DNA of 64,000 bases from Dictyostelium discoideum (GCA_000004695.1 CM000150.2:1824001-1888000); one strand, 5' to 3'. Counted from the first letter of the stretch, positions 10,588 through 64,000 are shown. Translations and numbers: made by a program. The notes: a model not told the origin generated them from the letters alone.

Positions 10588-14131
<3,544 letters not shown>

Positions 14132-42296: not shown

Positions 42297-42476
42297 TTAC
42301 TCTTCACTAAAACTTAAAAATTCATCTTCTTCACTTAAACTATAATCATTATCTTCTAAAACAGTATTATCTTCACCCTCTTTATTTATTTTCTTGATTC
42401 TATTACATTCACTCTCACTATAATAATTTTCTTTGTCTTCATGCTCACCCTTGTCACCATCATCTTCATCATCATC

Positions 42477-42521
<45 letters not shown>

Positions 42522-45500
42522 TTCATCCTCGTCTTCGTCTTCGTCCTCATCTTCATCATCATATTCATCTTCAGAATCTGAATGAGGTTGAATTAATCCA
42601 TTTGGATTTAAATAGTCATATTCTTGAATTTGTTGTTCTAAAACACTGATACCTTTGGAATCAATTGAGACCATTGAGTTTATTGAATGAACATATTGAC
42701 AAAATGGACCCCAAGTTCTATCTTTTTTTAAGAGTTTAGAATTACCAATTACAAATAATCCAAATTTAGCTCTTGTGAGTGCGACATTAATACGTCTACG
42801 ATCAGAAAGGAAACCAATTCTTTCGCTTCTTACACACGATAAAATTATGATATCTTTTTCTGAACCTTGAAAACCATCAATTGTTGATGTTTCAATATTT
42901 AATGGATAATTAAACTGTTTATGTTGTTCTTTGATTTCACTCTTTTGTAATTTATATGGCGTAATAATACCAAATGAGAACTTTTTACATTCTGGATAAT
43001 CTTGAACTAACTTTTTAATCAATGTGAATACCATTGTGATTTCTAATTTATTCTTTAATGATCTTTTACCACTTTCTTCTTTTGAATCAATAACATCATA
43101 GAATCTAATTGGACCATATTTGATATCTGAATGGAAATTATGTTGATTGTATACTAATGACTTTACATTATCACCATCTAATAATCTGTCTCTATAGAAT
43201 TGATTTGATGGGAATCTTGAAATTGTTGGATGCATACGATATTGAACATGTAACATTTCAACTGGTAATACTTTTGATAATCTTTCGAATAATGATATAT
43301 TTAAACCATTTTCTGCACTTTCTGTAGAGAAGATAGTTGGTGGTAATTGTAATGGATCACCAACGAGAATTAACTTTTCAATATTACCAATACATAATGG
43401 AATTATTGATGATGGTTCAGTTGATTGAGTTGATTCATCTACTAATATAATATCTGCTCTAAAGTTGTTCTTAACAGTTTCAGAACCACTTCCAGATAGA
43501 GTTGAGAAAACAATGGATGCTCTATAGATACTATCAGATTTCTCACGTTGAGTTTTATTGAAAATTGAAATACTATGACAATCTGGTGATATATTTTCCT
43601 TTTTACCAATACGTACCATATTTGGTAAATAAGGTTTACCATCTAAACCTATTAATTTCTTTTTTGAACATCTCTTTGCAATTTCATCTACTGATGCATG
43701 TGATGGACCACATACTAATATCTTGAATTCTGGATTAATTGCTAATAAAATTGAAAGTAAATAATAAATTGTTGTAGTTTTACCAGTACCTGGTGGACCT
43801 TGAATTAATGTAATACCTTTTGTTGATAATGATGTTTCAATTGAATTAAATTGTGATGTATTCAATTCTTGAATACACATGGATCTCAACAATGATGGAA
43901 TAGCCATTCTCTTTGAGGATAGTATATCGTGGTCTTTTCTTGATGGTTGTAAAATTTGATCAAATAGTATTCCAGAATTTCTAAAATCTTTTATTGCATT
44001 CAACTCTCTAATGAATGTAATGCAATTTGAAACTTTTATAAAGTATAACTTTTCTTTTATAGTATTGGAATCTTTCAAATAGTTTTTATGATTGAATGAA
44101 ATTGAATCAAACATTTCTATTATAGGATCCATTGAATCTGATGAATGAAATTTACATTTTACAATTTGTGTATTCTCTTCTAAATCAACATTTGAACAAT
44201 TGAGTACTAAACCCATTGCAAACATTGGTTCATTGGTATTATCAAATACTTTAAAAAGTAAAACATCATTATAAAATAATTCTTGGGACCCATCATTTAC
44301 ATCAATTTCAAACTTCATAATTGAATAGTCGGATATCTCTTTAAATGAGTGAATTGTTGGTCCATCAATCATCTTAATTTTATCTAAACCTATTAATGTA
44401 CCATCTTTTTCTGATATTGAAACACCTTCAATTTCATCAAATTCACCTGCAAGTTGTTTCCTATATTCCTCCACTATCAAAGGTTTCATTAAATCCATAT
44501 ATTCTTCATGATTTGAGTAACTTGATTTCAAATTTCTAATACTATTCACCTGTATTAATGGAATTCTTTCTGGACTAATCTTTAAAAATATTGATAATAT
44601 TTCGTAAGGACTCTTTAAAAAAACACTAACTAATTCACGAATTAATACAATTTTTAAAAAATTTTCATTATTATTATAATTGTTTTTATTATTATTATTA
44701 TTAAATTTATTATTTGATTTGGTTGTTGTTGTTGTAGTAGTTGTTGGTGTTGTTGTTGGTGTTGGAGTTGGTGTTGATGATGAGTTTATTAAAACCTTTT
44801 CATTTTTAATTAATTGATAAATTTCATTAAATAACAATTTTGAAATTAAGGTTAACCTTTCAGAGTTTAATAATTTAAAAGTTGGAATTTTAATAGCGGA
44901 ACGATTAATTTTTGTTTTAGATTTAAATTTTTTGATAAAACCATCAGAGAATTTACCTCTAATTAAATCTAAAAAGTTTAATTTAGTTTCATTATTTCTC
45001 TCTAATTCTAATTTCAATTGATCTGAATTTATGGGTCTAAAAGTTTTTGTTTTTTCTTTTAACTCTGAAATTTGTGAGAAATGGTTGAATTCTATCATTA
45101 CCATTAATGATAATGATTTTTGATAAATTGAATCAATATTTTCAGTATTTATATTATTTCTTTGAACCATTGAAATATCGTGTATTAATCTAATTTTTAA
45201 AACTTGAATATGCATATTAAATTGATTTTTGTTCTCATCAATTATTTTCTTTACTTGTTCTAATGATGGTTGATAAGATGGATTCAATTTTGATAATGTA
45301 TCCAATTTTCTAAAAATTAAATCTGCACTATTTGAATCTTCAAATATTAAATTTAATAAACTACGTTTCAATGGTTGGTTTATATCAAAAGTGGATGAAC
45401 CACTTTGAGGTGTTGTTGTTGTATGAGTGGTTGCGGTTGTGGTGGTTGTGGTAGGTGAAAGTGAATCTGGTTCAATCACTGATTTAGTTGAGGCAATTTT

Positions 45501-47103
45501 TTGTGGTATTTGTTTTATTGTTGGTTGGGCCTCGTTTGGTTTACCTGGATTTATTGGAGCTGGTAATGACGGTAAAGTTGTTGTTGTAGGAGTGGTTGTG
45601 GTTGTGGTTGTAGTTGTGGTTGTGGTTGTGGTTGTGGTAGGAGAAAGTGAATCCGGTTCAATCACTGATTTAGTTGAGGCAATTGTTTGTGGTATTTGTT
45701 TTATTGTTGGTTGGGCCTCATTTGGTTTACCTGGATTTATTGGAGCTGATAATGATGGTAAACTTGTTGTTGTTGTTGTTGTTGTCGGAGTGGTTGTGGT
45801 GGTGGGTCTTATTGAAGTTGTTGTGTTTGTGGTGGTTATGGTAGGTGAAAGTGAATCGGATCCAATCACTGATTTAGTTGAGGCAACTGTTTGTGGTATT
45901 TGTTTTATTGTTGGCTTGGCTTCATTTGATCTACCTTGATTTATTGGAGCTGAGAATAATGGTAAACTTGTTGCTGTCGTCGACGTTGTTGTTGTTGTTG
46001 TTGTTTTTGTTGTTTTTGGTGCATTTGAATAGATAGTATACTTTTCTGATAAAGATTTTCCTTTTCCTATTAGCTTCATACATTTTTCAAATGATTCACA
46101 AATTTTGATAAAATTTGAATCAATTAAACCATCTAAATACTCTGTAAATCTTAAATCATTGATACGATAATTTTTATTCTTTAAAACTGTTCTAAATTCA
46201 ATTAATTCTTTTTTTAATTTACTTGGAAAAATACATTTTTCAATATCTAAAAACGATATTGGCATTTCAAATTGTACAGAAGTTTCTATTTCAATTCTAC
46301 CTCTAATTTTTTGTATTCTATTTGATGTTAATCTTTTAAAAAAAAAACTAAACTCGATTAAAAAATTTAAATTACTATAATCACTATATAATTGATATAT
46401 ATTTCTTTTAATTATATCATCTTCATCTTCATCTTCACCTTCATCTTCATCTTCATCTTCATCTTTATTATTATTATTATTATTATAATATAATAAATCA
46501 TTTCTTTGAAAAAATGTAGGAAATTTAGAAGAGACATGAATTGAAGCTGTATATTTGACATTGTTGATTTTACGTAATAAAAAGAATTTTGATGAGGATT
46601 TAAGTAATACTTCTTGAATTTTACTTTGAAAAGTTGGAAAATAATTTTCAATATCCTCTAAACTATCTATTAATATTGATGAGTTTATAGTTTCAGTGGT
46701 AATTTGAGGTGTTGGTGATAAATTAATTGTTTCATTTAATTGAGTTAATAATACTCCAAGTTTTGGGTAAAGTGATTTTATATAATTTGAAACTGTTTGA
46801 TTTGGAAGAGGCAATGAGAAATCTGGAATCATATATGATTCTGTTTTATTTGTAGGAGTGAAAATATATGGTTTTGAAATTAAATTTGGATCAAAAGTAC
46901 CAATTTTTTTAAATTTTATTGAAATTCCACTTGATTTTAAATGATTTTTAAAGTCATTTATAGAATTTTTTTTTGAACTTTTTGTTTGTGAAAAATGATT
47001 CTTTAATAAATGTATTTGATAATGTACATTAAATTTTATAATGGTTTGAAATTTGATAAATTTATTAAAAAAATCACTTGATAAAATTAAATGCTCACTA
47101 ACT

Positions 47104-47198
<95 letters not shown>

Positions 47199-47670
47199 TA
47201 AAAAATTATTCTTTATTTCTTTTAATAATTTTTTTTTTAATTTTTCAATCAGAGTAGTAAAAAAATCATCTTCCAAAGCTTCAATTATAAATTCTAGTTG
47301 ATCTACACATGTTGGAAATTGGACTTTTAATTGTTTAATTGTTTCTAATTGTTTTTTGGGGTTATTACATTCTTTAAATATTAATTTTATTAGATTATTA
47401 TTATTATTATCATCATTATTATCATCATTATTATTATTATTATTATTACTATTATTATTACTATTATTATTATTGTTATTATTATTATTAATGGTATTTG
47501 TCGATGATAATTCAGATTGCGTTGGATTTATTAATGACAAAGAAGGTGACAGATTTTTGCTTTCACTAGAAAAATTAAATGAGAGTTAGAAAAATGGCAA
47601 AAAAAAAAAAAAAAAAAAAAAAATATCTAATATCAATATTTTACTCTTCTGTTTTTAAAATAGAACCCAT
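42297..47670 (-). CDS. Copy 1 of a tandem paralogous family: a large UPF1/MOV10-like SF1 helicase protein. The CDS is join(47645..47670, 42297..47565). It has an Asn-rich N-terminus, the shared N-terminal module, 3 x ~57-aa Thr/Pro-rich tandem repeats, a C-terminal helicase core and an acidic poly-Asp/Glu tail. It has NO nucleotidyltransferase domain.
   Basis: Helicase motifs were read directly: GPPGTGKT (I), VCGPSHASVDE (Ia), LVDESTQ (II), VGDPLQLPPT (III), YRMHP (IV), DGFQGSEKDIIILSCVRS (V), VALTRAKFGLFVIG (VI). The short first exon ATGGGTTCTATTTTAAAAACAGAAGA|GTAAAAT and the acceptor TTTTCTAG| at 47566-47567 restore the frame (MGSILKTED-ESKNLSPSLSLINPTQ...). The TTG 'start' at 47540 in the ORF track is internal. 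Confidence 0.75.
45430..45950. repeat. Three tandem copies of a ~175-bp coding repeat inside helicase copy 1. They encode SLPSLSAPINPGKPNEAQPTIKQIPQTIASTKSVIEPDSLSPT + poly-Thr.
   Basis: Near-identical peptide and DNA repeats were read in the 42297..47540 ORF. They are mirrored in the antisense ORF 45427..45939. Confidence 0.8.
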
Positions 47671-48332
47671 ATTTTTTTTTGTGTAGGTGATAATAAAAAA
47701 AAAAAAAAAAAAAAAAAAAATTAAAAAACAATACAATAATATATCCAATTATATACAATTATATATACAATGGTTTTATTTGTTGTGTTGAATTTTTAAA
47801 ATAAAAAATAAAAAAATTTTCAAATACGAATCAAAATTTGGGTTTTAAAAAAAAGAAAATTCAAAAAAAAAAAAAAAAAATCAAAAAAAATTAAATTAAA
47901 AATCCGATTAAGTACGATTTAAAATAAAAAAAAAAAAAATAAATAATAAAATGAAATAATATAAAAAAAAATAATAAAATAAAATTATAAAAAAGAAAAA
48001 ATTTGTATCATTTATTTTAAAATAAAAGAATAAAAAAAATTAATTTAAAACTTTACTTTTTTTTTTTTTTATTACTAAAATAAATGGACAATTTAAAAAA
48101 AAAAAAAAAAATAAAAAAAATTTTAAAAAATGGAAAAATTTTGATTTGTCGTCCCCAAAAAAAAATCAAAGAGAAAAAGAAAAAAAAATAAAAAAAAAAA
48201 AAATTTGGTTATTTTTTTTTATTTTTTTTTTTTTTATATAAATAGATATTTTCAATTGTGTTTATAAAAAAAGAGTTAAAATGAGTTTAGGGACATTAGT
48301 TTTAAAAAAAAAAAACGTAGGTAAAATTGGTG

Positions 48333-48690
48333 GATTTAATGACTGAAGGAAATGAATTACCATATTAACTAAACAGAATGAACTAAATGTTTTCTCTGCT
48401 GCATTATTTAAATCTTTTGAGATTGCCCACCATTTTACTAATAATGCTAAATCTATACATCTATTATCAATTGAACAATATTCACCTAACAATAATGAAT
48501 TGTGATAACTAATCATTGAATTAAAACACATATCGAAATGAATACCTGATGATATCTCTTTGAATCTAATGATTGGTATTTTTGCATCCATTCTTTTTTC
48601 AATTAATTTATATTGTTGAGATCTATTTAAGTATTTATAAACTTGTTTTAAATAAGTTGTATCTTCCTTTTGAATACATGAAAATATATC
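48333..48690 (-). pseudogene. Pseudogene fragment. It is a partial copy of the nucleotidyltransferase/PAP-associated region of copies 2 and 3 (KQVYKYLNRSQ.YKLIEKR..AKIPIIRFKEISSGIHFDMCFNSM.SYHNSLLLGEYCSIDNRCIDLALLVKWWAISKDLNNAAEKTFSSFCLVNMVIHFLQSLNPPILP). Homology ends abruptly at both ends.
   Basis: The nucleotide and protein sequence is near-identical to 49853..50215 of copy 2. Homology breaks at 48332. Downstream the ORF runs into unrelated sequence (…TFFFFKTNVPKLILTLFL*). Confidence 0.8.
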
Positions 48691-48840
48691 ACCAGATTGT
48701 CATCGTATATCTCTTTTTGATAAAACACTAGCACAAAGAAAAGAAATTCTTAAGAATGCAAATATTGTTTTCTCAACATTATCAGCAAGTGGTTCTGGTC
48801 CTGTTAGAAGTAACTTTAAAGCAAATATTGTACATGCACA
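48691..48840 (+). pseudogene. Pseudogene fragment in INVERTED (plus) orientation. It is a partial copy of the helicase motif Ia-II region (CHRISLFDKTPAQRKEILRNANIVFSTLSASGSGPVRSNFKANIV). It abuts the NTase fragment.
   Basis: The plus-strand translation matches the minus-strand-encoded copy 2/3 sequence CHRISPYDKTPAQRKEIIRNANIVFSTLSASGSGSVRSNFKANIV. The junction with the NTase fragment at ~48690 is direct. Confidence 0.75.
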
Positions 48841-49354
48841 AGTACAAGTTTAACAGGTTCATCAGATTTAACAGGTTTAACTGGTACAGGTAAAGGTTTT
48901 TACAGGTTTAGCAGATTCAGGTAAAGGTTGTCAGGAAGATTATAAATCTACCTATGCACTATGACATTAGGAGTGGTTTAATATTTTTTAATACTTAGAC
49001 AATAATAACAATAAAAAAACAAAAAAAAATTTTATTTTTATTTCTTAAAAAAGTAAACAAAATAAATAAAATAGAAATTTTGCCTATTGCAATAGTAAAG
49101 ATACAATTTTTAAAAATTTAAAATCGAAGTCATAATTTAATAAATAAAAATAAAAATAAAATTATTTGTTTTTTTAAATAATTCCCATGGAATTTAGATT
49201 TTGCCTTAAGAAATCTATCCGTAAATATTTTTACAAGATTAAAAAAAAAAAAAAAATTCAAATTTACTTGTCCTTTTATTTATTTTAATTTAAACAAAAA
49301 AAAAAAAAAAATGGTTTGGGTATTATTTTTTAATTTTTTTTTTTTTGTAAAACT

Positions 49355-52300
49355 CTAAGAAAGTAATCCATTTGACGATAATGATAAATTCTCTTTGAAT
49401 AAATCATTAATTGTTGTTTTGGTTGATCTTAAAGAATATTCCATCATTGTGAATTCCATTAATACTCTTTGGTATGTTTTTTTAATTGATGATGCTAAAT
49501 TTCTATCATTAATAAATGGATCAAGTACAATGATATGACCTTTTACTGGTGTACCCTTTATAGTTGATCTTTTTAATAATGCTCCATTTTCACATAAACT
49601 ACCACCACCACTTGAGTGACTAATTGATATGATATTCTCTTTATAATTAAATGTTGAATAATAATAAAAGAATTGATAAAACAATTGAGCGATTGTCAAT
49701 TTGTTTCTTTTTGGTTCAAATTTGTTAAAACTTGACCAATCATAATATTTAACTAAATAATTTTCTACGATTGTTTGTGATTTTAATTTAATTAAATTTC
49801 TATCTGTTGAATACTTTTCTAATAGTTGATTTGATGTTGTTTGTAAATTTGGTAAAATTGGTGGATTTAATGACTGAAGGAAATGAATTACCATATTAAC
49901 TAAACAGAATGAACTAAATGTTTTCTCTGCTGCATTATTTAAATCTTTTGAAACTGCCCACCATTTTACTAATAATGCTAAATCTCTACATCTTTTATCA
50001 ATTGAACAATATTCACCTAACAATAATGAATTGTGATAACTCATCATAGAATGAAAGCACATATCGAAATGAATACCTGATGATATCTCTTTGAATCTAA
50101 TGATTGGTACTTTTGCACTAATTCTTTTTTCAATTAATTTATATAGTTGAGATCTATTTAAATATTTATAAACTTGTTTTAAATGAGTTGTATCTTCTTT
50201 TTGAGTACTTGAGAAATTAATATCTAAATCACTATCATTCAATGATAATCCACTCAAGAATGAACCATATAAATTAATTGATGCTGTTGCGAAACCTTCT
50301 GATATTAATTTCTTTAATCTATTATAACTATCTTGTTTAATTGATTTCTTTTTACATTCAATTTTTGAAATAATTTCATTAAGAGAATTATTTGTTTTTG
50401 ATGATGATAAAGATTGTGAAATTTCTTGTATTTCTAAATTATTTAAAACTTTCTTTAAATATGAATCCAAGAGACGTGAATATTTAACAAAACTATCTCT
50501 TAATGTTTTCTTTTTTGATAAAGTTGATTGATCTATTTTTTCTTGATTTGATTTTTGTAATTCTATAATAATATTAATAAGAGTGTTTGGAAAATCTTTA
50601 TCAATGATTAAATTATTTGAATCTGGTGAAACTGTCTCATCTTCATCATCATCATCGCTGATACTATAATATTCATCATCATCATCATCCAAATCATCAT
50701 TATCTTCACCTTCTTGATTAATTTTCTTGATTCTATTACTTTCATCATCTTCATCATGCTCTTGTATTTCTTCATTATCTTCATCTTCGTCTTCCTCTTC
50801 ATCTTTACCATCATATTCATCTTCAGAATCTGAATGGAATTCAATTAATCCATTTGGATTTAAAGAGTCATATTCTTGAATTTGTTGTTCTAAAACACTG
50901 ATACCTTTAGAATCAATTGAGACCATTGAGTTTATTGAATGAACATATTGACAAAATGGACCCCAAGTTCTATCTTTTTTTAAGAGTTTAGAATTACCAA
51001 TTACAAATAATCCAAATTTAGCTCTTGTGAGTGCGACATTAATACGTCTACGATCAGAAAGGAAACCAATTCTTTCACTTCTTACACATGATAAAATTAT
51101 AATATCTTTTTCTGAGCCTTGAACCCCATCAATTGTTGATGTTTCAATATTTAATGGATAATTAAACTGTTTATGTTGTTCTTTGATTTCACTCTTTTGT
51201 AATTTATATGGCGTAATAATACCAAATGAGAACTTTTTACATTCTGGATAATCTTGAACTAACTTTTTAATCAATGTGAATACCATTGTGATTTCTAATT
51301 TATTCTTTAATGATCTTTTACCACTTTCTTCTTTTGAATCAATAACATCATAGAATCTAATTGGACCATATTTGATATCAGAATGGAAATTATGTTGATT
51401 GTATACTAATGACTTTACATTATCACCATCTAATAATCTGTCTTTATAGAATTGATTTGATGGGAATCTTGAAATTGTTGGATGCATACGATATTGTGTA
51501 TTTAACATTTCAACTGGTAATACTTTTGATAATCTTTCAAATAATGATATATTTAAACCATTTTCTGCACTTCCTGATGAGAAAATAGTTGGTGGTAATT
51601 GTAATGGATCACCAACAAGAATTAACTTTTCAATATTACCAATACATAATGGAATTAGTGAAGCTGGTTCAGATGATTGAGTTGATTCATCTACTAATAC
51701 AATATTTGCTTTAAAGTTACTTCTAACAGAACCAGAACCACTTGCTGAAAGAGTTGAGAAAACAATATTTGCATTTCTAATAATTTCTTTTCTTTGTGCT
51801 GGTGTTTTGTCATAGGGTGATATACGATGACAATCTGGTGATATATTTTGAAGTTTACCAATACGTACCATATTTGGTAAATAAGGTTTACCATCTACAT
51901 TTATTAAACTCTTTTTTAAACATCTCTTTGCAACTTCATCTACTGATGCATGTGATGGACCACATACTAATATCTTGAATTTTGGATTAATTGCTAATAA
52001 AATTGAAAGTAAATAATAAATTGTTGTAGTTTTACCAGTACCTGGTGGACCTTGAATTAATGTAATACCTTTTTTTGATAATGATGTTTCAATTGCATTA
52101 AATTGTGATGCATTCAATTCTTGAATACAAATGGATCTTAACAATGATGGAATCTCCATTCTCATTGATGTCATTAAATTATAAACTTCCAATGATGGTT
52201 GTAAAATTTGATTTAAAAGTGTTTTTGAATTTTTAAACTCTTCTGTTGCTTCTAATTCTCTAATGAATGTAGTACTATTAGAAACCTTTATAAAATGTAA

Positions 52301-55300: not shown

Positions 55301-56273
55301 TGGTACTGTTGGTGGTGATACAGTTGTTGTTGTTGTTGCTAATGACACTGCTGGTGGTGTTATATCAATAACTGATGTAGATGATATTTTCTGTTCTATT
55401 GTAGTTGTACCTAAACATTTATTATATAATTTACAAAGGTTGATAAAGTTTGATTGAATTGAAATTGATATATCTTGAGAATCTGAAAATTTTAAATAAT
55501 TTATTTTATAATTTTTACCCTTTAAAATAAATTTGAAATCATTTGAAATTTGACGAAATTTTGATGGATAATTACATTTGAAAACCTCTGATAATGTTAT
55601 TGTTATATTTTGAGCTGACAATTGATCATAAAGCCTTTGTTTTTGATCAGCTGTGATTGATGTATCATCTGTAAATAATTTCTTTAAAATTAATCTTTGA
55701 TATAAAAAACTAAATTCAATCATAATTTTCAATGCTATAAAATCATTATAAATTTGAAAAATATCGTTATTATTATTATTACGATTGATATTATTTAATA
55801 AATTTGTTTTTTTAACTAATTTACTAAATTTATCAGAGACATCTATTGAAGAAGATGTTTTAATAATTCCAATTTTATTCTCTAAAGAAGTTTTATCATT
55901 TTCTAAAATTTCTTTAATTTTCTTAATATCGAAATTTGGAAATAATTTACAAACACCATTAATTCCATTTATGATATCTTTTAAATTACTATGCTTGAAT
56001 ATAGTTTTAAAAATATCATTTTCATTACTATTTATAATTTGTGAATTTTCAGTAATATTCAATTTGTTCATATTATTTATTATTGAATCCATTGTACTAT
56101 TGGTGTTAGTGTTGGTAGTGGTAGTGGTACTGGTGGTGGTAGTGGTACTGGTGGTGCTCGATTCTACAGTTGTTTTTGTTTTTTCTGGTACGCTTTGAGA
56201 AATTGGATTGTTATTATTTGATGAAGGTGGTGGTGGTGGTGGTGGTGAAGTTGATGAATTTGGAATATTTTCC

Positions 56274-56310
<37 letters not shown>

Positions 56311-57041: not shown

Positions 57042-60000
57042 TTAAGAAAGTAATCCATTTGACGATAATGATAAATTCTCTTTGAATAAATCATTAATTG
57101 TTGATTTGGTTGATCTTAAAGAATATTCCATCATTATGAATTCCATTAATACTCTTTGGTATGTTTTTTTAATTGATGATGCTAAATTTCTATCATTAAT
57201 AAATGGATCAAGTACAATGATATGGTCTCTTACAGCTCTACTCCTTATATTTGATCTTTTTAATAATGCTCCATTTTCACATAAACTACCACCACCACTT
57301 GAGTGACTAATTGATATGATATTCTCTTTATAATTAAATGTTGAATAATAATAAAAGAATTGATAAAACAATTGAGCGATTGTCAATTTGTTTCTTTTTG
57401 GTTCAAATTTGTTAAAACTTGACCAATCATAATATTTAACTAAATAATTTTCTACGATTGTTTGTGATTTTAATTTAATTAAATTTCTATTTGTTGAATA
57501 CTTTTCTAAGAGTTGATTTGATGTTGTTTGTAAATTTGGTAAAATTGGTGGATTTAATGATTGAAGGAAATGGATTACCATATTAACTAAACAGAATGAA
57601 CTAAATGTTTTCTCTGCTGCATTATTTAAATCTTTTGAAACTGCCCACCATTTTACTAATAATACTAAATCTCTACTTCTATTATCGATTGAACAATATT
57701 CGCCTAACAATAATGAATTGTGATAACTCATCATTGAATTAAAACACATATCGAAATGAACACCTGATGATATCTCTTTGAATCTAATGATAGGTACTTT
57801 TGCATCCGTTCTTTTTTCAATTAATTTATATAGTTGAGATCTATTTAAATATTTATAAACTTGTTTTAAATGAGTTGTATCTTCTTTTTGAGTACTTGAG
57901 AAATTAATATCTAAATCACTATCATTCAATGATAATCCACTCAAGAATGAACCATATAAATTAATTGATGCTGTTGCGAAACCTTCTGATATTAATTTCT
58001 TTAATCTATTATAACTATCTTGTTTAATTGATTTCTTTTTACATTCAATTTTTGAAATAATTTCATTAAGAGATTTATTTATATTTGATGAGGATGATGA
58101 TAAAGATTGTGAAATTTCTTGTATTTCTAAATTATTTAAAACTTTCTTTAAATATGGATCCAAGAAACGTGAGTGTTTTATAAAATTATCTCTTAATTTT
58201 TTCTTTTTTGATAAAGTTGATTGATCTATTTTTTCTTGATTTGATTTTTGTAATTCTATAATAATATTAATGAGAGCATTTGGAAAATCTTTATCAATGA
58301 CTAAATTATTTGTATCAAATACTTCTTCATCTTCATCATACTCTTCGCTGATACTATGATATTCTTCATCACCATGCTCATTATCATCATCATCATCATC
58401 CTCCAAATCATCATTATCTTCACCTTCTTGATTAATTTTCTTGATTCTATTACTTTCATCATCTTCATCATGCTCTTGTATTTCTTCATTATCTTCATCT
58501 TCGTCTTCCTCTTCATCTTCACTATCATCATAGTCATCTTCAGAATCTGAATGGAATTCAATTAATCCATTTGGATTTAAAGAGTCATATTCTTGAATTT
58601 GTTGTTCTAAAACACTGATACCTTTAGAATCAATTGAGACCATTGAGTTTATTGAATGAACATATTGGCAAAATGGACCCCAAGTTCTATCTTTTTTTAA
58701 GAGTTTAGAATTACCAATTACAAATAATCCAAATTTAGCTCTTGTGAGTGCGACATTAATACGTCTACGATCAGAAAGGAAACCAATTCTTTCGCTTCTT
58801 ACACACGATAAAATTATGATATCTTTTTCTGAACCTTGAACTCCATCAATTGTTGATGTTTCAATATTTAATGGATAGTTAAACTGTTTATGTTGTTCTT
58901 TGATTTCACTCTTTTGTAATTTGTATGGTGTAATAATACCAAATGAGAACTTTTTACATTCTGGATAATCTTGAACTAACTTTTTAATCAATGTAAATAC
59001 CATTGTGATTTCTAATTTATTCTTTAATGATCTTTTACCACTTTCTTCTTTTGAATCAATAACATCATAGAATCTAATTGGACCATATTTGATATCTGAA
59101 TGGAAATTATGTTGATTGTATACTAATGACTTTACATTATCACCATCTAATAATCTGTCTTTATAGAATTGATTTGATGGGAATCTTGAAATTGTTGGAT
59201 GCATACGATATTGTGTATTTAACATTTCAACAGGTAATACTTTTGATAATCTTTCAAATAATGATATATTTAAACCATTTTTTGCACTTTCTGATGAGAA
59301 AATAGTTGGTGGTAATTGTAATGGATCACCAACAAGAATTAACTTTTCAATATTACCAATACATAATGGAATTAGTGAAGCTGGTTCAGATGATTGAGTT
59401 GATTCATCTACTAATACAATATTTGCTTTAAAGTTACTTCTTATTGGTTTAGAACCACTTGCTGATAGAGTTGCGAAAATAATAGTTGCATTTCTAATAA
59501 TTGCTTTTCTTTGTGCTGGTGTTTTATCAAAAAGTGATATACGATGACAATCTGGTGATATATTTTGAAGTTTACCAATACGTACCATATTTGGTAAATA
59601 AGGTTTACCATCTATATTAACTAAACTCTTTTTCAAACATCTCTTTGCAACTTCATCTACTGATGCATGTGATGGACCACATACTAATATCTTGAATTTT
59701 GGGTTAATTGCTAATAAAATTGAAAGTAAATAATAAATTGTTGTAGTTTTACCAGTACCTGGTGGACCTTGAATTAATGTAATACCTTTTGTTGATAATG
59801 ATGTTTCAACTGCACTAAATTGTGATGTATTCAATTCTTGAATACACATGGATCTCAACAATGATGGAATCTCCATTCTCATTGATGTCATTAAATTATA
59901 AACTTCCAATGATGGTTGTAAAATTTGATTTAAAAGTGTTTTTGAATTTTTAAATATTTCCGGTGCTTCTAATTCTCTAATAAATGTAGTACTATTAGAA

Positions 60001-63000
60001 ACCTTTATAAAATGTAAAATATCTTTTGAAGTTTTCGAATTCAACGAAACTGAATAAAACTTTTCAATTAATGGTTTCGTTGAATCCGATAATACAAATT
60101 CGCAAATAATTATTTGTTTTTTACCCTTTAAAACTGAATTTGATGTTACTAACCCCAATGCAAACATTGGTTTACTAGTATGATCAAATGTTTTAAAAAG
60201 TAAAATATCATTAAGGTATATTTCCTCTAATTCATCCTTAACCTTAATATTAAATTTAATTGCAACCAAATCCTCTGACAACTCTCGGAATGAATGAATT
60301 GTTGGTGTATCATTCATCTTAACTCTATCTAAACCTATTAATGTACCATCTTGCTCTGAAATTGAAACACCTTCAATTTCATTAAAATCACCTTCGAGTT
60401 GTGCTCTATATTCTTCTACTATTAAAGGTTTCATTAAATTTACAAATTCTGATTGGTCAGAATAACTATCTTGTAATGAATGAATATTATCAGCTTGAAT
60501 TAATGGAATTCTTTCTGGACTACTCTTTAAAAATATTGATAATATCTCTTCAGAATCTTTTGAAATTACTTCAACATGATCACGAACTAAAACAACTTTT
60601 CCATTATTATTATTATTATTATTACTATTATTGTTATTTCTTGATCTTATTGTAGTTGTTCCTGTTGAGGAGTTGACAAACAACTTTTCACTTTTAATTA
60701 ATTGATAAATTTCATTAAATTGTAACTTTGAAATTAAACCTAACTTTTCAGAATTTAATAATTTAAAAGATGGAATCTTTAAAGTTGAACCATTGATTTT
60801 TGTTGTTGATTCAAAGTTACTGACGAGATTATCAAAGAATTTACCTTTAACTATATCTGAAAATTCTAATTTCATTTTATTATTTTTTGCTAATTCTGAA
60901 TTCAATTGATTGAGGTATTGTCTACAAGTCTTTGTTTTTTCTCTTAATTCTGAATACTGTGAGAAATGATTAAACTCTAATAATACCATTAATGATAATG
61001 ACTTGTTATATATTTTTTCAATATTTTGATTGCTTGTATTATTTTTTTGAATCTTTGAAAAATCTGTTTTTAATCTATGTTTAATACCATTAATATTTGT
61101 ATTAAATTGAATTTTACTCTCATTGATTATATTCCTAACTTGTTTAATTGATTCTTTGTTATAAGGATGTGATTGTGATAATCTATCCAATGTTTTAATA
61201 ATTGAATCTGCACTATTAGAATCTTCAAATATTAATTTCAATAAACTATGTTTCAATGAATGGTCATTCTCAAATGTTGTAGTAGTATTATTATTAGAAC
61301 TAGGTGATGGTACTATTGATATTTGTGATGTTGTTGTTGGTGATGGTGCTGTTGTTGTAGCTTTATCTTTTATAATACTAATGGTAGCTGAAGCTGTGGG
61401 TGTTGTTGAACTTGTTGTATTAGATATTTTTTGTGAATTTGAAAGTGATAAATCTTTATAATCCAACACTAAAGATTTTATATAAATAATAAAAGATTTT
61501 ATTAAAGTTCCAATTGTATTATCACTTTGATTTTTATGACCAAGTGGTAATTTAAATAACTCTACATTCATCGTATATTCAGTTTTTTTAGATTTAGATT
61601 TAATATTTAATTCTACTTGTTCTGGAATATAGTTTAAAATATCTATTGATTTTTGATCAATAAATGCTTCAACTTTAATACAAAATCTTTGGTGGTGAAT
61701 ATTCAATAAATTGAATGCCTCTAATTTAAAATTCAAAATATCTTGTGAGTTTTCAACTGTGAAATTTTTATCAAAATATTCTTTAATATAATTTCTTTGA
61801 GAAAGATTACTAAATTCAATTAATGAAATGATTGTAAAAATTGTTTCATTAATTTCATTAAACTTTGATGGATTTACACTTGATATTAATAATTCCTGTA
61901 CAGCTTTTGATGTATTGTTTTTATGAAATTCAATCTTTCTTTTGAATAATGAAATTATATCCTTAGTCGCTGATTTAATTAAACCAATTTGTAAATTAAA
62001 TGCTGGATATTGATTCTTTAAACTATCAATTTCCTCTGGTTTATTAAAAAATGTATTAAATAATGAAAATATTTGTTTTTCAATATTTGATGGTTTCTTC
62101 AAAATTACTGTTGGTATATTTGATAATAACTCTTTTGGTGTTGTTGGTGTTGGTGTTGGTATTGGTGTTGGTGTTGGTGTTGATGTTGGTGTTGGAGTTG
62201 GAGTTGATGTTGGTGTTGGTGTTGATGTTGGTGTTGGTGTTGATGTTGACGTTGGAGTTGTGATTGTTGGTGGTGGTACTGGTACTGGTACTGGTTTTAT
62301 TTCTGTTGGTGATGCTGTTGTTGTAGTTGTTGAGTCTGATAAAAGTTGATAATCTAAAATTAAAGATTTTATATAAATCAAATGTGATCCGATTAATTGT
62401 CCAATGGTATTACTATCGTTATTTTTGTGACCAATTTGTAATTTAAATAAATCAATGTTAAATAAAACTTTTTCAGATTTTAATTCTAATTTCGATGGTA
62501 CTGGAACGAAATCTAAAACATTAGATGATATAGTTTGACTAATGAGTTTTTCTAAATCAATTTTTAAACTTTGATGTTGAATTTCTAATAAATTGAAAAG
62601 CGATGGATGTATTCTCTTTGGATTGGGTAAATGTTTTTTAAGAGTAATTCTTTGGTAAAGATTACTAAACTCTATTAATAAAACGATAGTAACTAGTGTA
62701 GTTTTAATTTCTTCAAATTTTATAAAGTTAATCTTTGAATCCAATGATTTTTTAAGTTGATTTAATGTTGTAATTTTCACTGAATCTATGATACTTTGAA
62801 ATGATGTTTGGTTTTCTTTTATAATTGTTTCAACTGATAATAATTCAAATTCAAAGATTGAGTGTTTTTTAATCAAATCTTGAATACCTTCTAATTTGTA
62901 GAAAATTTTATAAAAAATTGAAAAAACTATGATTTCAGTAGTTGTTGGTTCCATTGTGAATATTGTTGATGATGATGATGATTCCACTGTTGGTGATTTT

Positions 63001-64000
63001 GTTGATGATGTTGATGGTTTTGGTAATGCTGTTGGTGATGGTGTTGGTGATGGTTTTGGTAATGCTGTTGATGGTGTTGTTGGTAATGCTGTTGTTGGTA
63101 ATGGTGTTGATGGTTTTGGTAATGGTGTTGGTGATGGTGTTGGTAATGCTGTTGATGCTGATTTTGTTGATGTTGTTGATGGTGTTGGTTTTGTTAATGG
63201 TGTTGATGGTGATTTTGATGCTGTTGTTGTTGATGCTGTTGTCGTTGGTAATGGTGTTGATGATGACTTTGTTGATGGTGTTGGTAATGCTTTTGTTGGT
63301 AATGGTGAAGCTATACCTAAACATTTATTATATAATTTACAAAGGTTGATAAAGTTTGACTGAATTGAAATTGATATATCTTGAGAATCTGAAAATTTTA
63401 AATTTTTTATTCTATAATATTTACCCTTTAAAACAAAATTGAAATCATTTGAAATTTGATGAAAACTAGGTGGGTTATTACATTTGAAAACCTCTGGTAA
63501 TGTTATTGTTCTATTTTGAGCTGACAATTGATCATAAAGTTTTTGTTTTTCATCAGCTGTGATTGATTTATCACCTGTAAACAATTTCTTTAAAATTAAT
63601 CTTTGATATAAAAAACTAAATTCAATCATAACTTTCAATGCTATAAAATCATTGTAAATTTGAAAAATATCATTGTTATTATTATTATTATAATTATTAT
63701 TAGGATTGATATTATTATTATTTAATAAATCTTTTTTTTGAACTAAATTTCTAAATTTATCAGATATTTCTTTTGATGCTATATTTTCAGTATATTCAAT
63801 TTTATTCCCTAAAGAAGTTTGATTGCTTTTTAAAATTTCTTTAATATAATTAATATCAAAACTTGGGAATAATTTAGAAACATAATCAGTTTCATTTATG
63901 ATATCTTTTAAATTACTATGTCTGAATATAGTTTTAAAAATATCAAATTCACCACCACTATTTATAATTTGTGAATTTTTAGTAATATTCAATTGGTTCA
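57042..64000 (-). CDS. Copy 3, with the same helicase + terminal nucleotidyltransferase fusion architecture as copy 2. It is 5'-partial: the N-terminus and first exon lie beyond the window end.
   Basis: The ORF stays open to the window edge. The TTG 'start' at 63992 is an artefact. The upstream in-frame sequence ...NQLNITKNSQIINSGGEFDIFKTIFRHSNLKDIIN aligns with MNKLNITENSQIINSNENDIFKTIFKHSNLKDIIN of copy 2. The helicase motifs and the NTase motifs (INLYGSFLSGLSLNDSDLDINF, FDMCF, LVKWWAVSKDLNNAAEKTFSSFCLVNMVIHFLQ) are conserved. The 3' ~1.6 kb, including the 3' flank to ~56940, is near-identical to copy 2. Confidence 0.75.
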   Translation of the reverse strand, partial: NQLNITKNSQIINSGGEFDIFKTIFRHSNLKDIINETDYVSKLFPSFDINYIKEILKSNQTSLGNKIEYTENIASKEISDKFRNLVQKKDLLNNNNINPNNNYNNNNNNDIFQIYNDFIALKVMIEFSFLYQRLILKKLFTGDKSITADEKQKLYDQLSAQNRTITLPEVFKCNNPPSFHQISNDFNFVLKGKYYRIKNLKFSDSQDISISIQSNFINLCKLYNKCLGIASPLPTKALPTPSTKSSSTPLPTTTASTTTASKSPSTPLTKPTPSTTSTKSASTALPTPSPTPLPKPSTPLPTTALPTTPSTALPKPSPTPSPTALPKPSTSSTKSPTVESSSSSTIFTMEPTTTEIIVFSIFYKIFYKLEGIQDLIKKHSIFEFELLSVETIIKENQTSFQSIIDSVKITTLNQLKKSLDSKINFIKFEEIKTTLVTIVLLIEFSNLYQRITLKKHLPNPKRIHPSLFNLLEIQHQSLKIDLEKLISQTISSNVLDFVPVPSKLELKSEKVLFNIDLFKLQIGHKNNDSNTIGQLIGSHLIYIKSLILDYQLLSDSTTTTTASPTEIKPVPVPVPPPTITTPTSTSTPTPTSTPTPTSTPTPTPTSTPTPTPIPTPTPTTPKELLSNIPTVILKKPSNIEKQIFSLFNTFFNKPEEIDSLKNQYPAFNLQIGLIKSATKDIISLFKRKIEFHKNNTSKAVQELLISSVNPSKFNEINETIFTIISLIEFSNLSQRNYIKEYFDKNFTVENSQDILNFKLEAFNLLNIHHQRFCIKVEAFIDQKSIDILNYIPEQVELNIKSKSKKTEYTMNVELFKLPLGHKNQSDNTIGTLIKSFIIYIKSLVLDYKDLSLSNSQKISNTTSSTTPTASATISIIKDKATTTAPSPTTTSQISIVPSPSSNNNTTTTFENDHSLKHSLLKLIFEDSNSADSIIKTLDRLSQSHPYNKESIKQVRNIINESKIQFNTNINGIKHRLKTDFSKIQKNNTSNQNIEKIYNKSLSLMVLLEFNHFSQYSELREKTKTCRQYLNQLNSELAKNNKMKLEFSDIVKGKFFDNLVSNFESTTKINGSTLKIPSFKLLNSEKLGLISKLQFNEIYQLIKSEKLFVNSSTGTTTIRSRNNNNSNNNNNNNGKVVLVRDHVEVISKDSEEILSIFLKSSPERIPLIQADNIHSLQDSYSDQSEFVNLMKPLIVEEYRAQLEGDFNEIEGVSISEQDGTLIGLDRVKMNDTPTIHSFRELSEDLVAIKFNIKVKDELEEIYLNDILLFKTFDHTSKPMFALGLVTSNSVLKGKKQIIICEFVLSDSTKPLIEKFYSVSLNSKTSKDILHFIKVSNSTTFIRELEAPEIFKNSKTLLNQILQPSLEVYNLMTSMRMEIPSLLRSMCIQELNTSQFSAVETSLSTKGITLIQGPPGTGKTTTIYYLLSILLAINPKFKILVCGPSHASVDEVAKRCLKKSLVNIDGKPYLPNMVRIGKLQNISPDCHRISLFDKTPAQRKAIIRNATIIFATLSASGSKPIRSNFKANIVLVDESTQSSEPASLIPLCIGNIEKLILVGDPLQLPPTIFSSESAKNGLNISLFERLSKVLPVEMLNTQYRMHPTISRFPSNQFYKDRLLDGDNVKSLVYNQHNFHSDIKYGPIRFYDVIDSKEESGKRSLKNKLEITMVFTLIKKLVQDYPECKKFSFGIITPYKLQKSEIKEQHKQFNYPLNIETSTIDGVQGSEKDIIILSCVRSERIGFLSDRRRINVALTRAKFGLFVIGNSKLLKKDRTWGPFCQYVHSINSMVSIDSKGISVLEQQIQEYDSLNPNGLIEFHSDSEDDYDDSEDEEEDEDEDNEEIQEHDEDDESNRIKKINQEGEDNDDLEDDDDDDNEHGDEEYHSISEEYDEDEEVFDTNNLVIDKDFPNALINIIIELQKSNQEKIDQSTLSKKKKLRDNFIKHSRFLDPYLKKVLNNLEIQEISQSLSSSSSNINKSLNEIISKIECKKKSIKQDSYNRLKKLISEGFATASINLYGSFLSGLSLNDSDLDINFSSTQKEDTTHLKQVYKYLNRSQLYKLIEKRTDAKVPIIRFKEISSGVHFDMCFNSMMSYHNSLLLGEYCSIDNRSRDLVLLVKWWAVSKDLNNAAEKTFSSFCLVNMVIHFLQSLNPPILPNLQTTSNQLLEKYSTNRNLIKLKSQTIVENYLVKYYDWSSFNKFEPKRNKLTIAQLFYQFFYYYSTFNYKENIISISHSSGGGSLCENGALLKRSNIRSRAVRDHIIVLDPFINDRNLASSIKKTYQRVLMEFIMMEYSLRSTKSTINDLFKENLSLSSNGLLS

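What the first reader, a model, noticed from the sequence alone, without database searches (positions are those of the whole stretch)
42297..64000. Tandem array of three giant paralogous genes: an UPF1/MOV10-like helicase fused in-frame to a Cid1-family terminal nucleotidyltransferase
Three head-to-tail minus-strand genes of ~5.3, ~7.0 and >6.9 kb share an SF1 UPF1-like helicase core, with motifs I-VI conserved almost letter for letter. In copies 2 and 3 the same ORF continues, without a stop or splice, into a Pol-beta-type nucleotidyltransferase with a PAP-associated domain (GS-x10-DxD, hDh, ...KWW...FSSFCL.NMVI.FLQ). That is the non-canonical poly(A)/poly(U) polymerase signature. MOV10/SDE3/Armitage/Hrr1-type helicases and Cid12/RDE-3/TUTase enzymes normally act as separate polypeptides in RNA silencing and RNA surveillance, for example the Rdp1-Hrr1-Cid12 RDRC complex. 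A single polypeptide carrying both activities is not an architecture I know from characterised proteins. The triplication points to dosage or diversifying selection, as in genome-defence gene families. Copy 1 has lost the NTase part.
Basis: partly seen in the sequence, partly recalled or inferred. Interest (0 to 1): 0.85.

Follow-up and report, generated by a model that had tools for sequence, protein, structure and literature searches.

The report
Helicase fused to RNA-tailing enzyme, triplicated
Three neighbouring giant slime-mould genes encode a Sen1-like RNA helicase, two of them joined in one protein to an enzyme that adds tails to RNA 3' ends; this pairing normally involves separate proteins, is found here only in social amoebae, and is uncharacterised as far as my searches reach.

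Summary
Three head-to-tail minus-strand ORFs (c1 42297-47540, c2 49355-56092, c3 57042 to beyond 64000) all carry an intact UPF1-like SF1B helicase. c2 and c3 continue without a stop into a Cid1/TUT4/7-type terminal nucleotidyltransferase with GS, DxD and the third Asp intact.

Corrections and additions:
- The helicase derives from Sen1, not MOV10.
- The fusion is conserved in Dictyostelium purpureum, Heterostelium, Cavenderia and Acytostelium. It appeared in no other lineage among the top-scoring hits of three database searches.
- c1 and another helicase-only paralogue nest inside the fusion clade, so they lost the NTase secondarily.
- Scrambled helicase and NTase relics lie between c1 and c2.
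- Ks falls sharply in parts of the helicase core, which I read as gene conversion.
- Ka/Ks is below 1 in every region, so diversifying selection is not shown.
- The UTP-selecting His of Cid1/TUT7 is Arg here, so the added nucleotide cannot be predicted.
- The N-terminal 850-1100 residues are three or four copies of a lineage-specific helical module with no known relative.

The likely function, inferred and not shown, is a 5'-3' helicase delivering an RNA 3' end to its own tailing domain. I found no paper on the fusion.

The parts
49355..56092 (-). Copy 2 (c2): complete single-ORF gene of 2245 aa. Order: four N-terminal modules, pre-helicase region, SF1B helicase, acidic linker, Cid1-type NTase.
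   Evidence: ORF, translation, Pfam.
52916..56035 (-). c2 N-terminal array of four ~210-aa helical modules (aa 20-227, 286-493, 566-780, 848-1059), separated by T/P-rich linkers.
50987..52120 (-). c2 helicase core (aa 1325-1702): GPPGTGKT, VDESTQ, GDPLQLPPT, QYRMHP, TIDGVQGSEKD, RRINVALTRAK.
   Evidence: AAA_11 1.4e-43 and AAA_12 2.2e-59. PDB: Sen1 5mzn 8e-69, UPF1 2.5e-62.
49358..50455 (-). c2 nucleotidyltransferase (aa ~1880-2245): palm 50006-50380, PAP-associated 49505-49693. YGSFLSGLSLNDSDLDI and HFDMCF intact. Arg at the Cid1 His336 / TUT7 His1286 position (DPFINDRNL).
   Evidence: Pfam. PDB: TUT4 2.8e-34, TUT7 1.8e-27, URT1 1.5e-25, GLD2 and Cid1 about 1e-20 to 1e-21, with alignments. 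Family alignment.
57042..64000 (-). Copy 3 (c3): same architecture as c2. The ORF runs off the window end, about 9 N-terminal codons short of the c2 start.
   Evidence: 90% nt identity to c2 over about 6 kb.
58704..59837 (-). c3 helicase core (aa 1388-1765).
   Evidence: Pfam, coordinates.
57045..58151 (-). c3 nucleotidyltransferase (aa ~1950-2318), 94.5% identical to that of c2.
60651..63950 (-). c3 N-terminal array of four modules.
42297..47670 (-). Copy 1 (c1): helicase-only paralogue. Predicted exon 1 at 47670..47645 (MGSILKTE..), a 79-nt GT..AG intron, and exon 2 at 47565..42297. It has three modules, a 3 x 186-bp coding repeat, the helicase and an acidic tail, and stops within the linker.
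   Evidence: No NTase match downstream.
42735..43868 (-). c1 helicase core (aa 1225-1602). Ks to c2/c3 is very low in patches (0.02-0.09), which I read as gene conversion.
48262..48744 (-). Relic NTase fragment between c2 and c1. The 48319-48672 stretch is 91.5% identical to c2 aa 1964-2081. It lacks the GS/DxD part, has an in-frame stop and is truncated after FLQSLNPPILP.
   Evidence: tblastn, ORF, translation.
48680..48829 (+). Relic helicase fragment in inverted orientation (86% to c2 aa 1415-1464), abutting the NTase relic.
   Evidence: tblastn, sequence read.

Best explanation
These are members of a gene family specific to dictyostelids. A duplicate of the Sen1-type SF1B (UPF1-like) RNA helicase became fused, in one polypeptide, to a C-terminal Cid1/TUT4/7-type terminal ribonucleotidyltransferase.

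Shown:
- the architecture itself
- intact catalytic motifs in both enzymes
- conservation of the fusion across Dictyostelia
- recent tandem expansion in this genome, with relic fragments and secondary loss of the NTase in c1; local Ks drops in the helicase core are read as gene conversion

Inferred mechanism. Characterised UPF1-like helicases, including Sen1, translocate 5'->3' on RNA. That movement would strip proteins and secondary structure and bring the enzyme to the RNA 3' end. There the tethered NTase would add a short untemplated tail. The tail would mark the RNA for decay, or license it for a downstream step. This does in cis what MOV10+TUT4/7, Sen1(NNS)+TRAMP and Hrr1+Cid12 do as separate proteins.

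The variable N-terminal helical modules are the likeliest place for target or partner recognition. The nucleotide added is not predictable in this species, because Arg replaces the UTP-selecting His.
For: - Uninterrupted ORFs of 2245 aa and more than 2318 aa carry both domain sets.
- Helicase motifs I-VI are intact, and the nearest structures are Sen1 and UPF1.
- NTase GS/DxD/D align to the TUT4/TUT7 catalytic module and are invariant in all eight fusion proteins.
- The same helicase -> conserved C-terminal extension -> acidic linker -> NTase order occurs in D. purpureum XP_003286312, H. album, C. fasciculata (two genes) and A. subglobosum (two genes in tandem).
- Both domains appear to be under purifying selection between c2 and c3: Ka/Ks is 0.25 for the helicase (Z -3.2) and 0.47 for the NTase (Z -1.7, not significant on its own).
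- A dispersed paralogue carries the two domains in the opposite order, NTase->module->helicase, in one frame. The pairing recurs there in a different order.
- Functional precedent for helicase plus tailing enzyme pairs: MOV10 with TUT4/7 (PMC6191937) and Nrd1-Nab3-Sen1 with TRAMP/Trf4 (PMC4186968).
Against: - There is no transcript, protein or activity evidence of any kind. The function is inferred from domains only.
- The helicase-NTase linker is long, acidic and low in complexity, so the geometric coupling is conjecture. The AF2 model of the two-enzyme part was poor (pLDDT 51).
- The NTase is dispensable in at least two paralogues (c1 and P0004). In D. purpureum it has lost the PAP_assoc Pfam hit and the DPF motif, so the tailing activity may not be essential to the family.
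- The nucleotide-selector position varies among orthologues (H, N, S, R).
- 5'->3' polarity is assumed from Sen1, UPF1 and IGHMBP2. It was not tested.
Confidence: 0.6

Rival explanations
1. An RNAi-amplification or transposon-silencing module. The fusion would be the dictyostelid counterpart of Hrr1+Cid12 in the fission-yeast RDRC. It would work with the RrpA-C RNA-dependent RNA polymerases and Argonautes to make or stabilise siRNAs against DIRS-1 or Skipper. This is a special case of the best explanation, not its opposite.
For: - Helicase plus Cid1-family NTase is the non-polymerase half of RDRC (own knowledge).
- The family shows tandem expansion, relics, Ks drops read as gene conversion, and fast-evolving N-terminal modules with Ka/Ks 0.66-0.86. 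Such birth-and-death dynamics are common in defence gene families.
- MOV10+TUT4/7 restrict LINE-1 (PMC6191937).
Against: - The helicase derives from Sen1, not from the MOV10/SDE3/Armitage group.
- No RdRP, Argonaute or Dicer gene lies in the window. The neighbours identified are a STAT, a transhydrogenase, an FNIP-repeat gene, a hemerythrin-domain ORF and a kinase fragment.
- No region has Ka/Ks > 1.
- No literature links these genes to RNAi.
Confidence: 0.2
2. A nuclear Sen1-like termination or R-loop factor that tails the released non-coding transcript itself. This would be a one-protein version of the yeast hand-over from Nrd1-Nab3-Sen1 to TRAMP and the exosome.
For: - The closest helicase relatives are Sen1 orthologues.
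- NNS termination is physically coupled to Trf4 polyadenylation in yeast (PMC4186968).
Against: - The SEN1_N domain (PF12726) of true Sen1 is absent. A separate orthodox Sen1 with SEN1_N exists in dictyostelids (P0266, P0267).
- The NTase is much closer to the cytoplasmic TUT4/7, URT1, Cid1 and GLD2 group (E 1e-34 to 1e-20) than to Trf4 (2.4e-13).
- No zinc-knuckle or CID partner domain was detected.
Confidence: 0.12
3. The NTase part is a decaying or non-catalytic appendage, or the array is drifting towards pseudogenes. Only the helicase would matter, and the fusion would have no mechanistic meaning.
For: - The NTase was lost in c1 and P0004.
- Relic fragments lie in the array.
- The D. purpureum NTase is divergent.
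- The selector His is replaced.
Against: - All catalytic carboxylates and GS are invariant in eight proteins from six genomes (five other dictyostelid species plus this window), which span all the dictyostelid genera that the searches returned.
- c2 and c3 keep more than 6.7 kb of open frame in a genome of about 22% G+C, where random frames close quickly.
- The domain pairing recurs in permuted order at another locus.
Confidence: 0.06
4. An artefact: two adjacent genes (a helicase and an NTase) that merely appear as one ORF, or an assembly chimera.
For: None found. The only point is that the long acidic linker could in principle hide an intron or a termination site.
Against: - There is no stop codon between the domains in two independent copies.
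- The same order occurs in gene models of five other species from independent assemblies.
- A conserved C-terminal helicase extension and a pre-NTase helical segment bridge the two domains.
Confidence: 0.02

Closest known systems
Sen1 / senataxin (UPF1-like SF1B helicases)
   Same: The helicase core has motifs I-VI. The best solved-structure match is yeast Sen1 (5mzn, E 8e-69). The family is sister to amoebozoan Sen1 in the NJ tree (86%), and dictyostelid Sen1 orthologues are the best non-fusion hits.
   Different: There is no SEN1_N domain. Instead there is a lineage-specific array of helical modules at the N-terminus and an NTase at the C-terminus. A separate orthodox Sen1 exists in dictyostelids. 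This is a paralogue, not the orthologue.
TUT4/TUT7, URT1, Cid1, GLD-2 (Cid1-family terminal nucleotidyltransferases, TENTs)
   Same: Pol-beta palm with GS..DxD..D plus the PAP-associated domain, and an SS(Y/F) nucleotide-binding motif. E-values are 1e-34 to 1e-20, with the catalytic residues aligned.
   Different: - There are no zinc knuckles and no second, inactive NTase module.
- The domain is fused behind a helicase.
- The UTP-selecting His (Cid1 H336, TUT7 H1286; PMC3479196) is Arg in this genome. In orthologues it is H, N or S.
MOV10 + TUT4/7 on LINE-1 mRNA (PMC6191937); UPF1 with uridylation in histone mRNA decay (own knowledge)
   Same: A UPF1-like 5'-3' helicase cooperates with a Cid1-family tailing enzyme on the same RNA.
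   Different: Those are separate polypeptides. The helicase here is not of the MOV10 subfamily, and no target RNA is known.
Nrd1-Nab3-Sen1 coupled to TRAMP (Trf4-Air2-Mtr4) (PMC4186968)
   Same: A Sen1-type helicase pathway is coupled to non-canonical tailing of the released RNA. TRAMP itself pairs a helicase with an NTase.
   Different: The TRAMP helicase Mtr4 is SF2 (Ski2-like). Trf4 is a more distant NTase relative (E 2.4e-13). The coupling is by protein-protein contacts, not fusion.
RDRC of fission yeast (Rdp1-Hrr1-Cid12)
   Same: Helicase plus Cid1-family NTase in one functional unit.
   Different: It is a three-protein complex built around an RdRP. No RdRP link is shown here.
HELZ2 and DNA2 (UPF1-like helicases fused in cis to a nuclease; own knowledge)
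   Same: Precedent for fusing an SF1B helicase to an enzyme that acts on the nucleic-acid end it exposes.
   Different: The fused enzyme is a nuclease, not a nucleotidyltransferase.

Membership tests
UPF1-like SF1B helicases (Pfam AAA_11 + AAA_12) | Both RecA-like halves detected above the curated cut-offs. | tested here: met
   AAA_11 at 146-154 bits and AAA_12 at about 201 bits against a cut-off of 27, in all three copies.
UPF1-like SF1B helicases (Pfam AAA_11 + AAA_12) | Motifs I (GxxGTGKT), II (DExxQ), III, IV (QYRMHP), V and VI (RRxNVAxTRA) intact. | tested here: met
   GPPGTGKT, VDESTQ, GDPLQLPPT, QYRMHP, TIDGVQGSEKD and RRINVALTRAK were read. They are invariant in alignment A3.
UPF1-like SF1B helicases (Pfam AAA_11 + AAA_12) | Accessory 1B beta-barrel and stalk ahead of or inside RecA1. 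| tested here: inconclusive
   The AF2 model shows a beta-rich block (res 71-138, pLDDT ~70-78) before the core. The overall model is poor (pLDDT 51, pTM 0.32), so no fold search was run.
UPF1-like SF1B helicases (Pfam AAA_11 + AAA_12) | 5'->3' ATP-dependent RNA or DNA unwinding. | not testable with these tools
   Needs biochemistry.
Sen1/senataxin orthologues | Helicase core groups with Sen1. | tested here: met
   NJ tree: sister to SEN1_N-bearing amoebozoan Sen1, 86% bootstrap. Profile-search ranking: Sen1 (524-533 bits) > MAA3 (~460) > UPF1 (~430-443).
Sen1/senataxin orthologues | N-terminal SEN1_N (PF12726) helical-repeat domain. | tested here: not met
   No PF12726 hit in c1-c3. True dictyostelid Sen1 proteins have it (P0007, P0266, P0267).
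MOV10/SDE3/Armitage helicases | Closest relatives are MOV10-type helicases. | tested here: not met
   None of the best 120 named hits in either search is MOV10, SDE3 or Armitage. They are Sen1, MAGATAMA3 and UPF1. No MOV10 sequence was placed in the tree, so this rests on ranking only.
Cid1-family terminal nucleotidyltransferases (TENT; Pol-beta superfamily) | hG[GS]-x9-13-Dh[DE]h plus a third carboxylate. | tested here: met
   YGSFLSGLSLNDSDLDI and HFDMCF align to the TUT4/TUT7 GS, DLD and D. They are invariant in eight fusion proteins.
Cid1-family terminal nucleotidyltransferases (TENT; Pol-beta superfamily) | PAP-associated (central) domain following the palm. | tested here: met
   PF03828 at 34 bits against a cut-off of 22.6, and PF22600 at 69-73 bits against 27, in c2 and c3.
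Cid1-family terminal nucleotidyltransferases (TENT; Pol-beta superfamily) | Untemplated NMP addition to RNA 3' ends. | not testable with these tools
   Needs an in vitro tailing assay.
Uridylyltransferases (PUP/TUTase subclass) | His at the Cid1 H336 / TUT7 H1286 position, which contacts uracil O4 (PMC3479196). | tested here: not met
   Arg in c2, c3 and the L002 paralogue (DPFINDRNL, DPFVTDRNI). His in A. subglobosum (both genes) and C. fasciculata P0003, Asn in H. album, Ser in C. fasciculata P0006.
RDRC-type RNAi module | Association with an RNA-dependent RNA polymerase. | not testable with these tools
   No RdRP gene in the window. Physical association needs IP-MS.
TRAMP complex | Ski2-like SF2 helicase (Mtr4), Trf4/5-type NTase and a zinc-knuckle protein. 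| tested here: not met
   The helicase is SF1B. Trf4 is a distant match (3nyb, 2.4e-13, against TUT4 2.8e-34). No zf-CCHC hit.

The most novel reading that the evidence does not exclude
The family is a dictyostelid-specific, single-polypeptide 'unwind-and-tail' machine used for genome defence. The fast-evolving, duplicating N-terminal helical modules would act as adaptors that recognise retrotransposon or other non-self RNPs. The Sen1-derived motor would strip the RNA. The in-cis NTase, with an unusual Arg selector, would write a tail of non-standard composition that routes the RNA to decay or to RdRP-dependent siRNA production. Tandem birth-and-death, gene conversion and domain permutation (NTase->helicase at another locus) would be the footprint of an arms race.
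Probability: 0.15. Interest if true: 0.8.

Novelty: new variant of a known kind. Interest (0 to 1): 0.55.

Why it matters
Helicase-assisted RNA tailing is a recurring theme in RNA surveillance: TRAMP, NNS-TRAMP, MOV10-TUT4/7, UPF1 with uridylation, and RDRC. It is normally studied as loosely associated multi-protein systems, and the coupling is hard to dissect.

A natural covalent fusion is 'Rosetta-stone' evidence that a Sen1/UPF1-type motor and a Cid1-type tailing enzyme work on the same RNA molecule. It exists in Dictyostelium, a genetically tractable organism where knock-outs, point mutants and tail sequencing are routine.

The variation at the nucleotide-selector residue (His, Asn, Ser, Arg) within one orthologous family offers a natural series for studying how TENT specificity evolves.

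Limits: the proteins are already in public databases as unnamed predictions, the fusion seems confined to one clade, and nothing about their function is shown.

Tried and rejected
1. The search for homologous proteins with the NTase domain alone returned nothing. Full HMMER found 5196 relatives. I treated this as a word-index failure, not as evidence.
2. Exact look-ups of the window's own proteins found nothing on record. The existing annotation of this genome could not be read.
3. A Foldseek search against afdb50, which might have given the UniProt entry, was unavailable.
4. The AF2 model of the helicase-NTase half was too poor to use (pLDDT 51). No inter-domain geometry is claimed.
6. Positive selection: sliding and pooled Nei-Gojobori Ka/Ks gave no credible region above 1. 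The only high windows lie in or beside misaligned low-complexity linker, or in conversion tracts where Ks is near zero (c1 vs c2 and c3, aa 1317-1416).
7. I looked for other helicase types among the 145 newly returned NTase relatives by P-loop pattern, and ran Pfam on five large ones. All five lack a helicase domain: four have the two-module TUT4/7 layout (three with zinc knuckles) and one has a single NTase module.
8. Seven completed literature searches for the fusion gave nothing. The Burroughs/Aravind RNAi comparative-genomics review could not be retrieved, so a passing mention there cannot be excluded.
9. The 'two genes misread as one' and 'MOV10-like' readings were rejected as explained above.
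Full report
**1. What is in the sequence**

The window is about 14-36% G+C. It carries a Dictyostelium-type STAT gene, FNIP repeats and other typical genes, so it comes from Dictyostelium discoideum or a very close relative.

The region 42297-64000 holds three long minus-strand ORFs:
- c1 at 42297..47540 (1747 aa)
- c2 at 49355..56092 (2245 aa)
- c3 from 57042 to beyond the window end (more than 2318 aa; about 9 codons are missing relative to c2)

Pfam finds AAA_11 and AAA_12, the two halves of UPF1-like SF1 helicases, in all three at E 1e-42 to 1e-60. In c2 and c3 only, and in the same uninterrupted frame, it also finds MTPAP-like_central (6e-19, 2.5e-20), TUTase (2e-8) and PAP_assoc (3e-8).

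c1 has no ATG at the start of its ORF. A 26-nt exon (47670..47645, MGSILKTE-) followed by a 79-nt GT..AG intron joins it in frame. This is read from the sequence and is not verified by transcripts.

**2.

(a) *N-terminal modules.* The first ~1060 residues of c2 (~1120 in c3) are four copies of a ~210-residue module, aa 20-227, 286-493, 566-780 and 848-1059 in c2. Copies are 21-26% identical to each other, share an ..IF..F...P...LIEFS.L.QR...FKL.. pattern, and are separated by T/P-rich linkers. c1 has three such modules plus a 3 x 186-bp coding repeat. The module has:
- no Pfam match
- a moderately confident AF2 model, a helical bundle with a hairpin (pLDDT 72.5)
- no significant match in the D. 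purpureum or other dictyostelid orthologues

(b) *Linker.* Between the helicase and the NTase lie a conserved ~50-residue helicase extension, an acidic low-complexity stretch and a helical segment. The extension and the pre-NTase segment are conserved in the orthologues.

(c) *Relics.* The 1.8-kb spacer between c2 and c1 holds two relics:
- an NTase fragment on the minus strand (48744..48262; the 48672..48319 stretch is 91.5% identical to c2 aa 1964-2081, with an internal stop and no catalytic part)
- abutting it, an inverted helicase fragment on the plus strand (48680..48829, 86%)

Nothing NTase-like lies downstream of c1.

**3. What the two enzymes are**

*NTase.* Against solved structures the best matches are the catalytic modules of TUT4 (2.8e-34) and TUT7 (1.8e-27), then URT1, GLD-2, Cid1 and CutA. 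Trf4 (2.4e-13) and mtPAP are further away. In the printed alignments GS, DLD and the third Asp align with the TUT4/TUT7 catalytic residues. These residues are invariant in all eight fusion proteins.

The residue aligned with TUT7 His1286 is Arg in c2 and c3 (DPFINDRNL). His1286 is equivalent to Cid1 His336, which contacts uracil O4. His at this position marks confirmed poly(U) polymerases, while poly(A) polymerases usually have Asn (PMC3479196). Among orthologues the position is:
- His in both A. subglobosum genes and one C. fasciculata gene
- Asn in H. album
- Ser in the other C. fasciculata gene
- not alignable in D. purpureum, where the motif has diverged

The domain is therefore a bona fide Cid1-family TENT by sequence, but the nucleotide it adds cannot be called.

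*Helicase.* Motifs I-VI are intact. The best solved relative is yeast Sen1 (8e-69), then UPF1 (2.5e-62), IGHMBP2, DNA2, ZNFX1 and Aquarius.

In an NJ tree of helicase cores the dictyostelid fusion proteins form a 100% clade. That clade is sister, at 86%, to amoebozoan Sen1 orthologues that carry SEN1_N. UPF1 proper and MAGATAMA3 lie elsewhere. In a profile search the best non-fusion hits are dictyostelid Sen1 proteins (524-533 bits), ahead of MAA3 (~460) and UPF1 (~430-443). No MOV10, SDE3 or Armitage protein appears among the best hits. The fusion proteins lack SEN1_N.

They are therefore Sen1-derived paralogues. They are neither Sen1 orthologues nor MOV10-like.

**4. Distribution**

The same helicase->NTase protein exists in:
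- D. purpureum (XP_003286312, 2271 aa, 'hypothetical')
- Heterostelium album (1412 aa)
- Cavenderia fasciculata (1534 and 1358 aa)
- Acytostelium subglobosum (1378 and 1251 aa, in tandem on one strand)

Among the 150 closest NTase relatives in a library of 1.84 billion cluster representatives, only these six carry the helicase. In both helicase+NTase searches of 5.8 billion proteins nothing outside Dictyostelia had both domain sets.

Caveats: only the 8000 candidates sharing most words were scored, only the top 120-150 hits were inspected, and the window's own genome seems to be withheld from the collections.

**5. Evolution of the array**

c2 and c3 are 90% identical in DNA over about 6 kb. 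c1 matches them only over the 3' 2.9 kb, at 82%.

Between c2 and c3, Ks is 0.05-0.3. Pooled Ka/Ks is as follows:

| Region | Ka/Ks |
|---|---|
| Modules 1-3 | 0.66 |
| Module 4 | 0.86 |
| Pre-helicase | 0.35 |
| Helicase | 0.25 |
| NTase | 0.47 |

Between c1 and c2/c3, Ks is 0.4-0.9 in module 4 and the pre-helicase region. It drops to 0.02-0.09 in two blocks of the helicase core. I read this drop as gene conversion.

c1 and a helicase-only protein from 'Dictyostelium cf. discoideum' (P0004) nest inside the fusion clade (99-100%). Absence of the NTase is therefore a secondary loss.

D. purpureum and C. fasciculata have single genes at their loci. The triplication is thus recent and specific to this lineage.

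**6. A permuted paralogue**

At the P0004 locus (L002) the DNA upstream of the helicase encodes, in order:
- an NTase N-half with GS..DLD
- after a 1-nt frame change, the NTase C-half (57% identical to c2, again with Arg at the selector)
- in the same frame, a T-rich linker, a module-4-type module and the pre-helicase region

The helicase follows, after an interval the gene caller treats as a gene boundary, and ends without a C-terminal NTase. The order is therefore NTase->module->helicase. This resembles the relic-NTase->c1 layout in the window and could be the product of unequal crossing-over in a tandem array. I could not decide whether the frameshift is real.

**7. How it most likely works**

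*Shown:* one polypeptide carries an apparently competent SF1B motor and an apparently competent TENT, and the arrangement is conserved across Dictyostelia.

*Inferred:* characterised UPF1-like helicases such as Sen1, UPF1 and IGHMBP2 move 5'->3' (established knowledge). The motor would therefore run towards the RNA 3' end, clearing proteins and structure. The tethered NTase would then tail the freed end. The tail would direct the RNA to decay or to a downstream processor. The N-terminal modules would supply target or partner specificity.

Three precedents use separate proteins:
- MOV10 with TUT4/7 on LINE-1 RNA (PMC6191937)
- Sen1-NNS with TRAMP (PMC4186968)
- Hrr1-Cid12 in RDRC (own knowledge)

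Which pathway applies here is open: cytoplasmic surveillance, RNAi or nuclear termination. The NTase's affinity to the TUT/URT1/Cid1 group favours a cytoplasmic surveillance-type role. The helicase's Sen1 ancestry leaves a nuclear role possible.

**8. Novelty and verdict**

The proteins are already in public databases as unnamed predictions or as 'regulator of nonsense transcripts-like'. Seven completed full-text searches found no paper on the fusion, and one relevant review was not retrievable.

Helicase-assisted RNA tailing is a known kind of system. The covalent Sen1-type helicase-TENT fusion, with its module array, is a new variant of it and is confined to social amoebae.

It is a good, testable lead in a tractable organism, but entirely without functional data. 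Interest 0.55.

Noticed in passing
window 48262-48829: Two scrambled relics of a further family member lie between c2 and c1. One is a truncated NTase fragment with an internal stop, on the minus strand. The other is an inverted 150-nt helicase fragment on the plus strand, touching it. They suggest a deleted or rearranged fourth copy.
   Followed up: partly
L002 6819-11861 (Dictyostelium cf. discoideum JBTAPH010000031.1): A dispersed paralogue has the domains in permuted order: NTase, T-rich linker, module and pre-helicase region in one frame, followed by the helicase (split off as P0004 by the gene caller), with no C-terminal NTase. The NTase is interrupted by a 1-nt frame change near 8040-8060. 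Module-like sequence with stops lies further upstream.
   Followed up: partly
window 45439-46013: c1 contains a 3 x 186-bp in-frame tandem repeat (80% matches). It encodes ..APINPGKPNEAQPTIKQIPQ.IASTKSVIEPDSLSPTTTT.. and is absent from c2 and c3.
   Followed up: no
window 54445-54621, 62142-62260, 62988-63307: Hexanucleotide and longer coding repeats give (TP)n and T/S/P-rich linkers between the N-terminal modules. Their length and sequence differ between c2 and c3.
   Followed up: no
L001 10001-20480 (Acytostelium subglobosum DF837596.1): An independent tandem pair of helicase-NTase genes lies on one strand, with a 129-aa gene between them and an FNIP-repeat gene just downstream. An FNIP-repeat gene also lies at 333-1394 in the window, but FNIP genes are numerous in dictyostelids.
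   Followed up: no
L003 10001-17202 (D. purpureum GL871006.1): The D. purpureum orthologue keeps GS/DxD/D. It has lost the PAP_assoc Pfam hit, and DPF has become DLF. Its 1360-aa N-terminus seems to start two repeats with an 'IF..F' motif like the D. discoideum modules, but the similarity is not significant (hhalign E ~0.04-0.1). A chromodomain ORF lies 5 kb upstream.
   Followed up: partly
window 10769-14131 (-), 29006-32152 (-), 333-1394 (-), 34322-36328 (-), 40346-40711 (-), 39435-39506 (+): Neighbouring genes are a Dictyostelium STAT family member (coiled coil, Ig-like and EF-hand domains), NAD(P) transhydrogenase, an FNIP-repeat protein, an ORF with a hemerythrin-like domain, a protein-kinase exon fragment and a tRNA-Thr(AGT). 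None is RNA-silencing related.
   Followed up: no
tools (vs 29; 15, 33): The word-indexed protein search found no hit for the NTase domain alone, while exhaustive HMMER found 5196. The window's own proteins, and close Dictyostelium orthologues of c2 and c3, are absent from the collections. The lack of near-identical hits therefore says nothing about annotation status.
   Followed up: no
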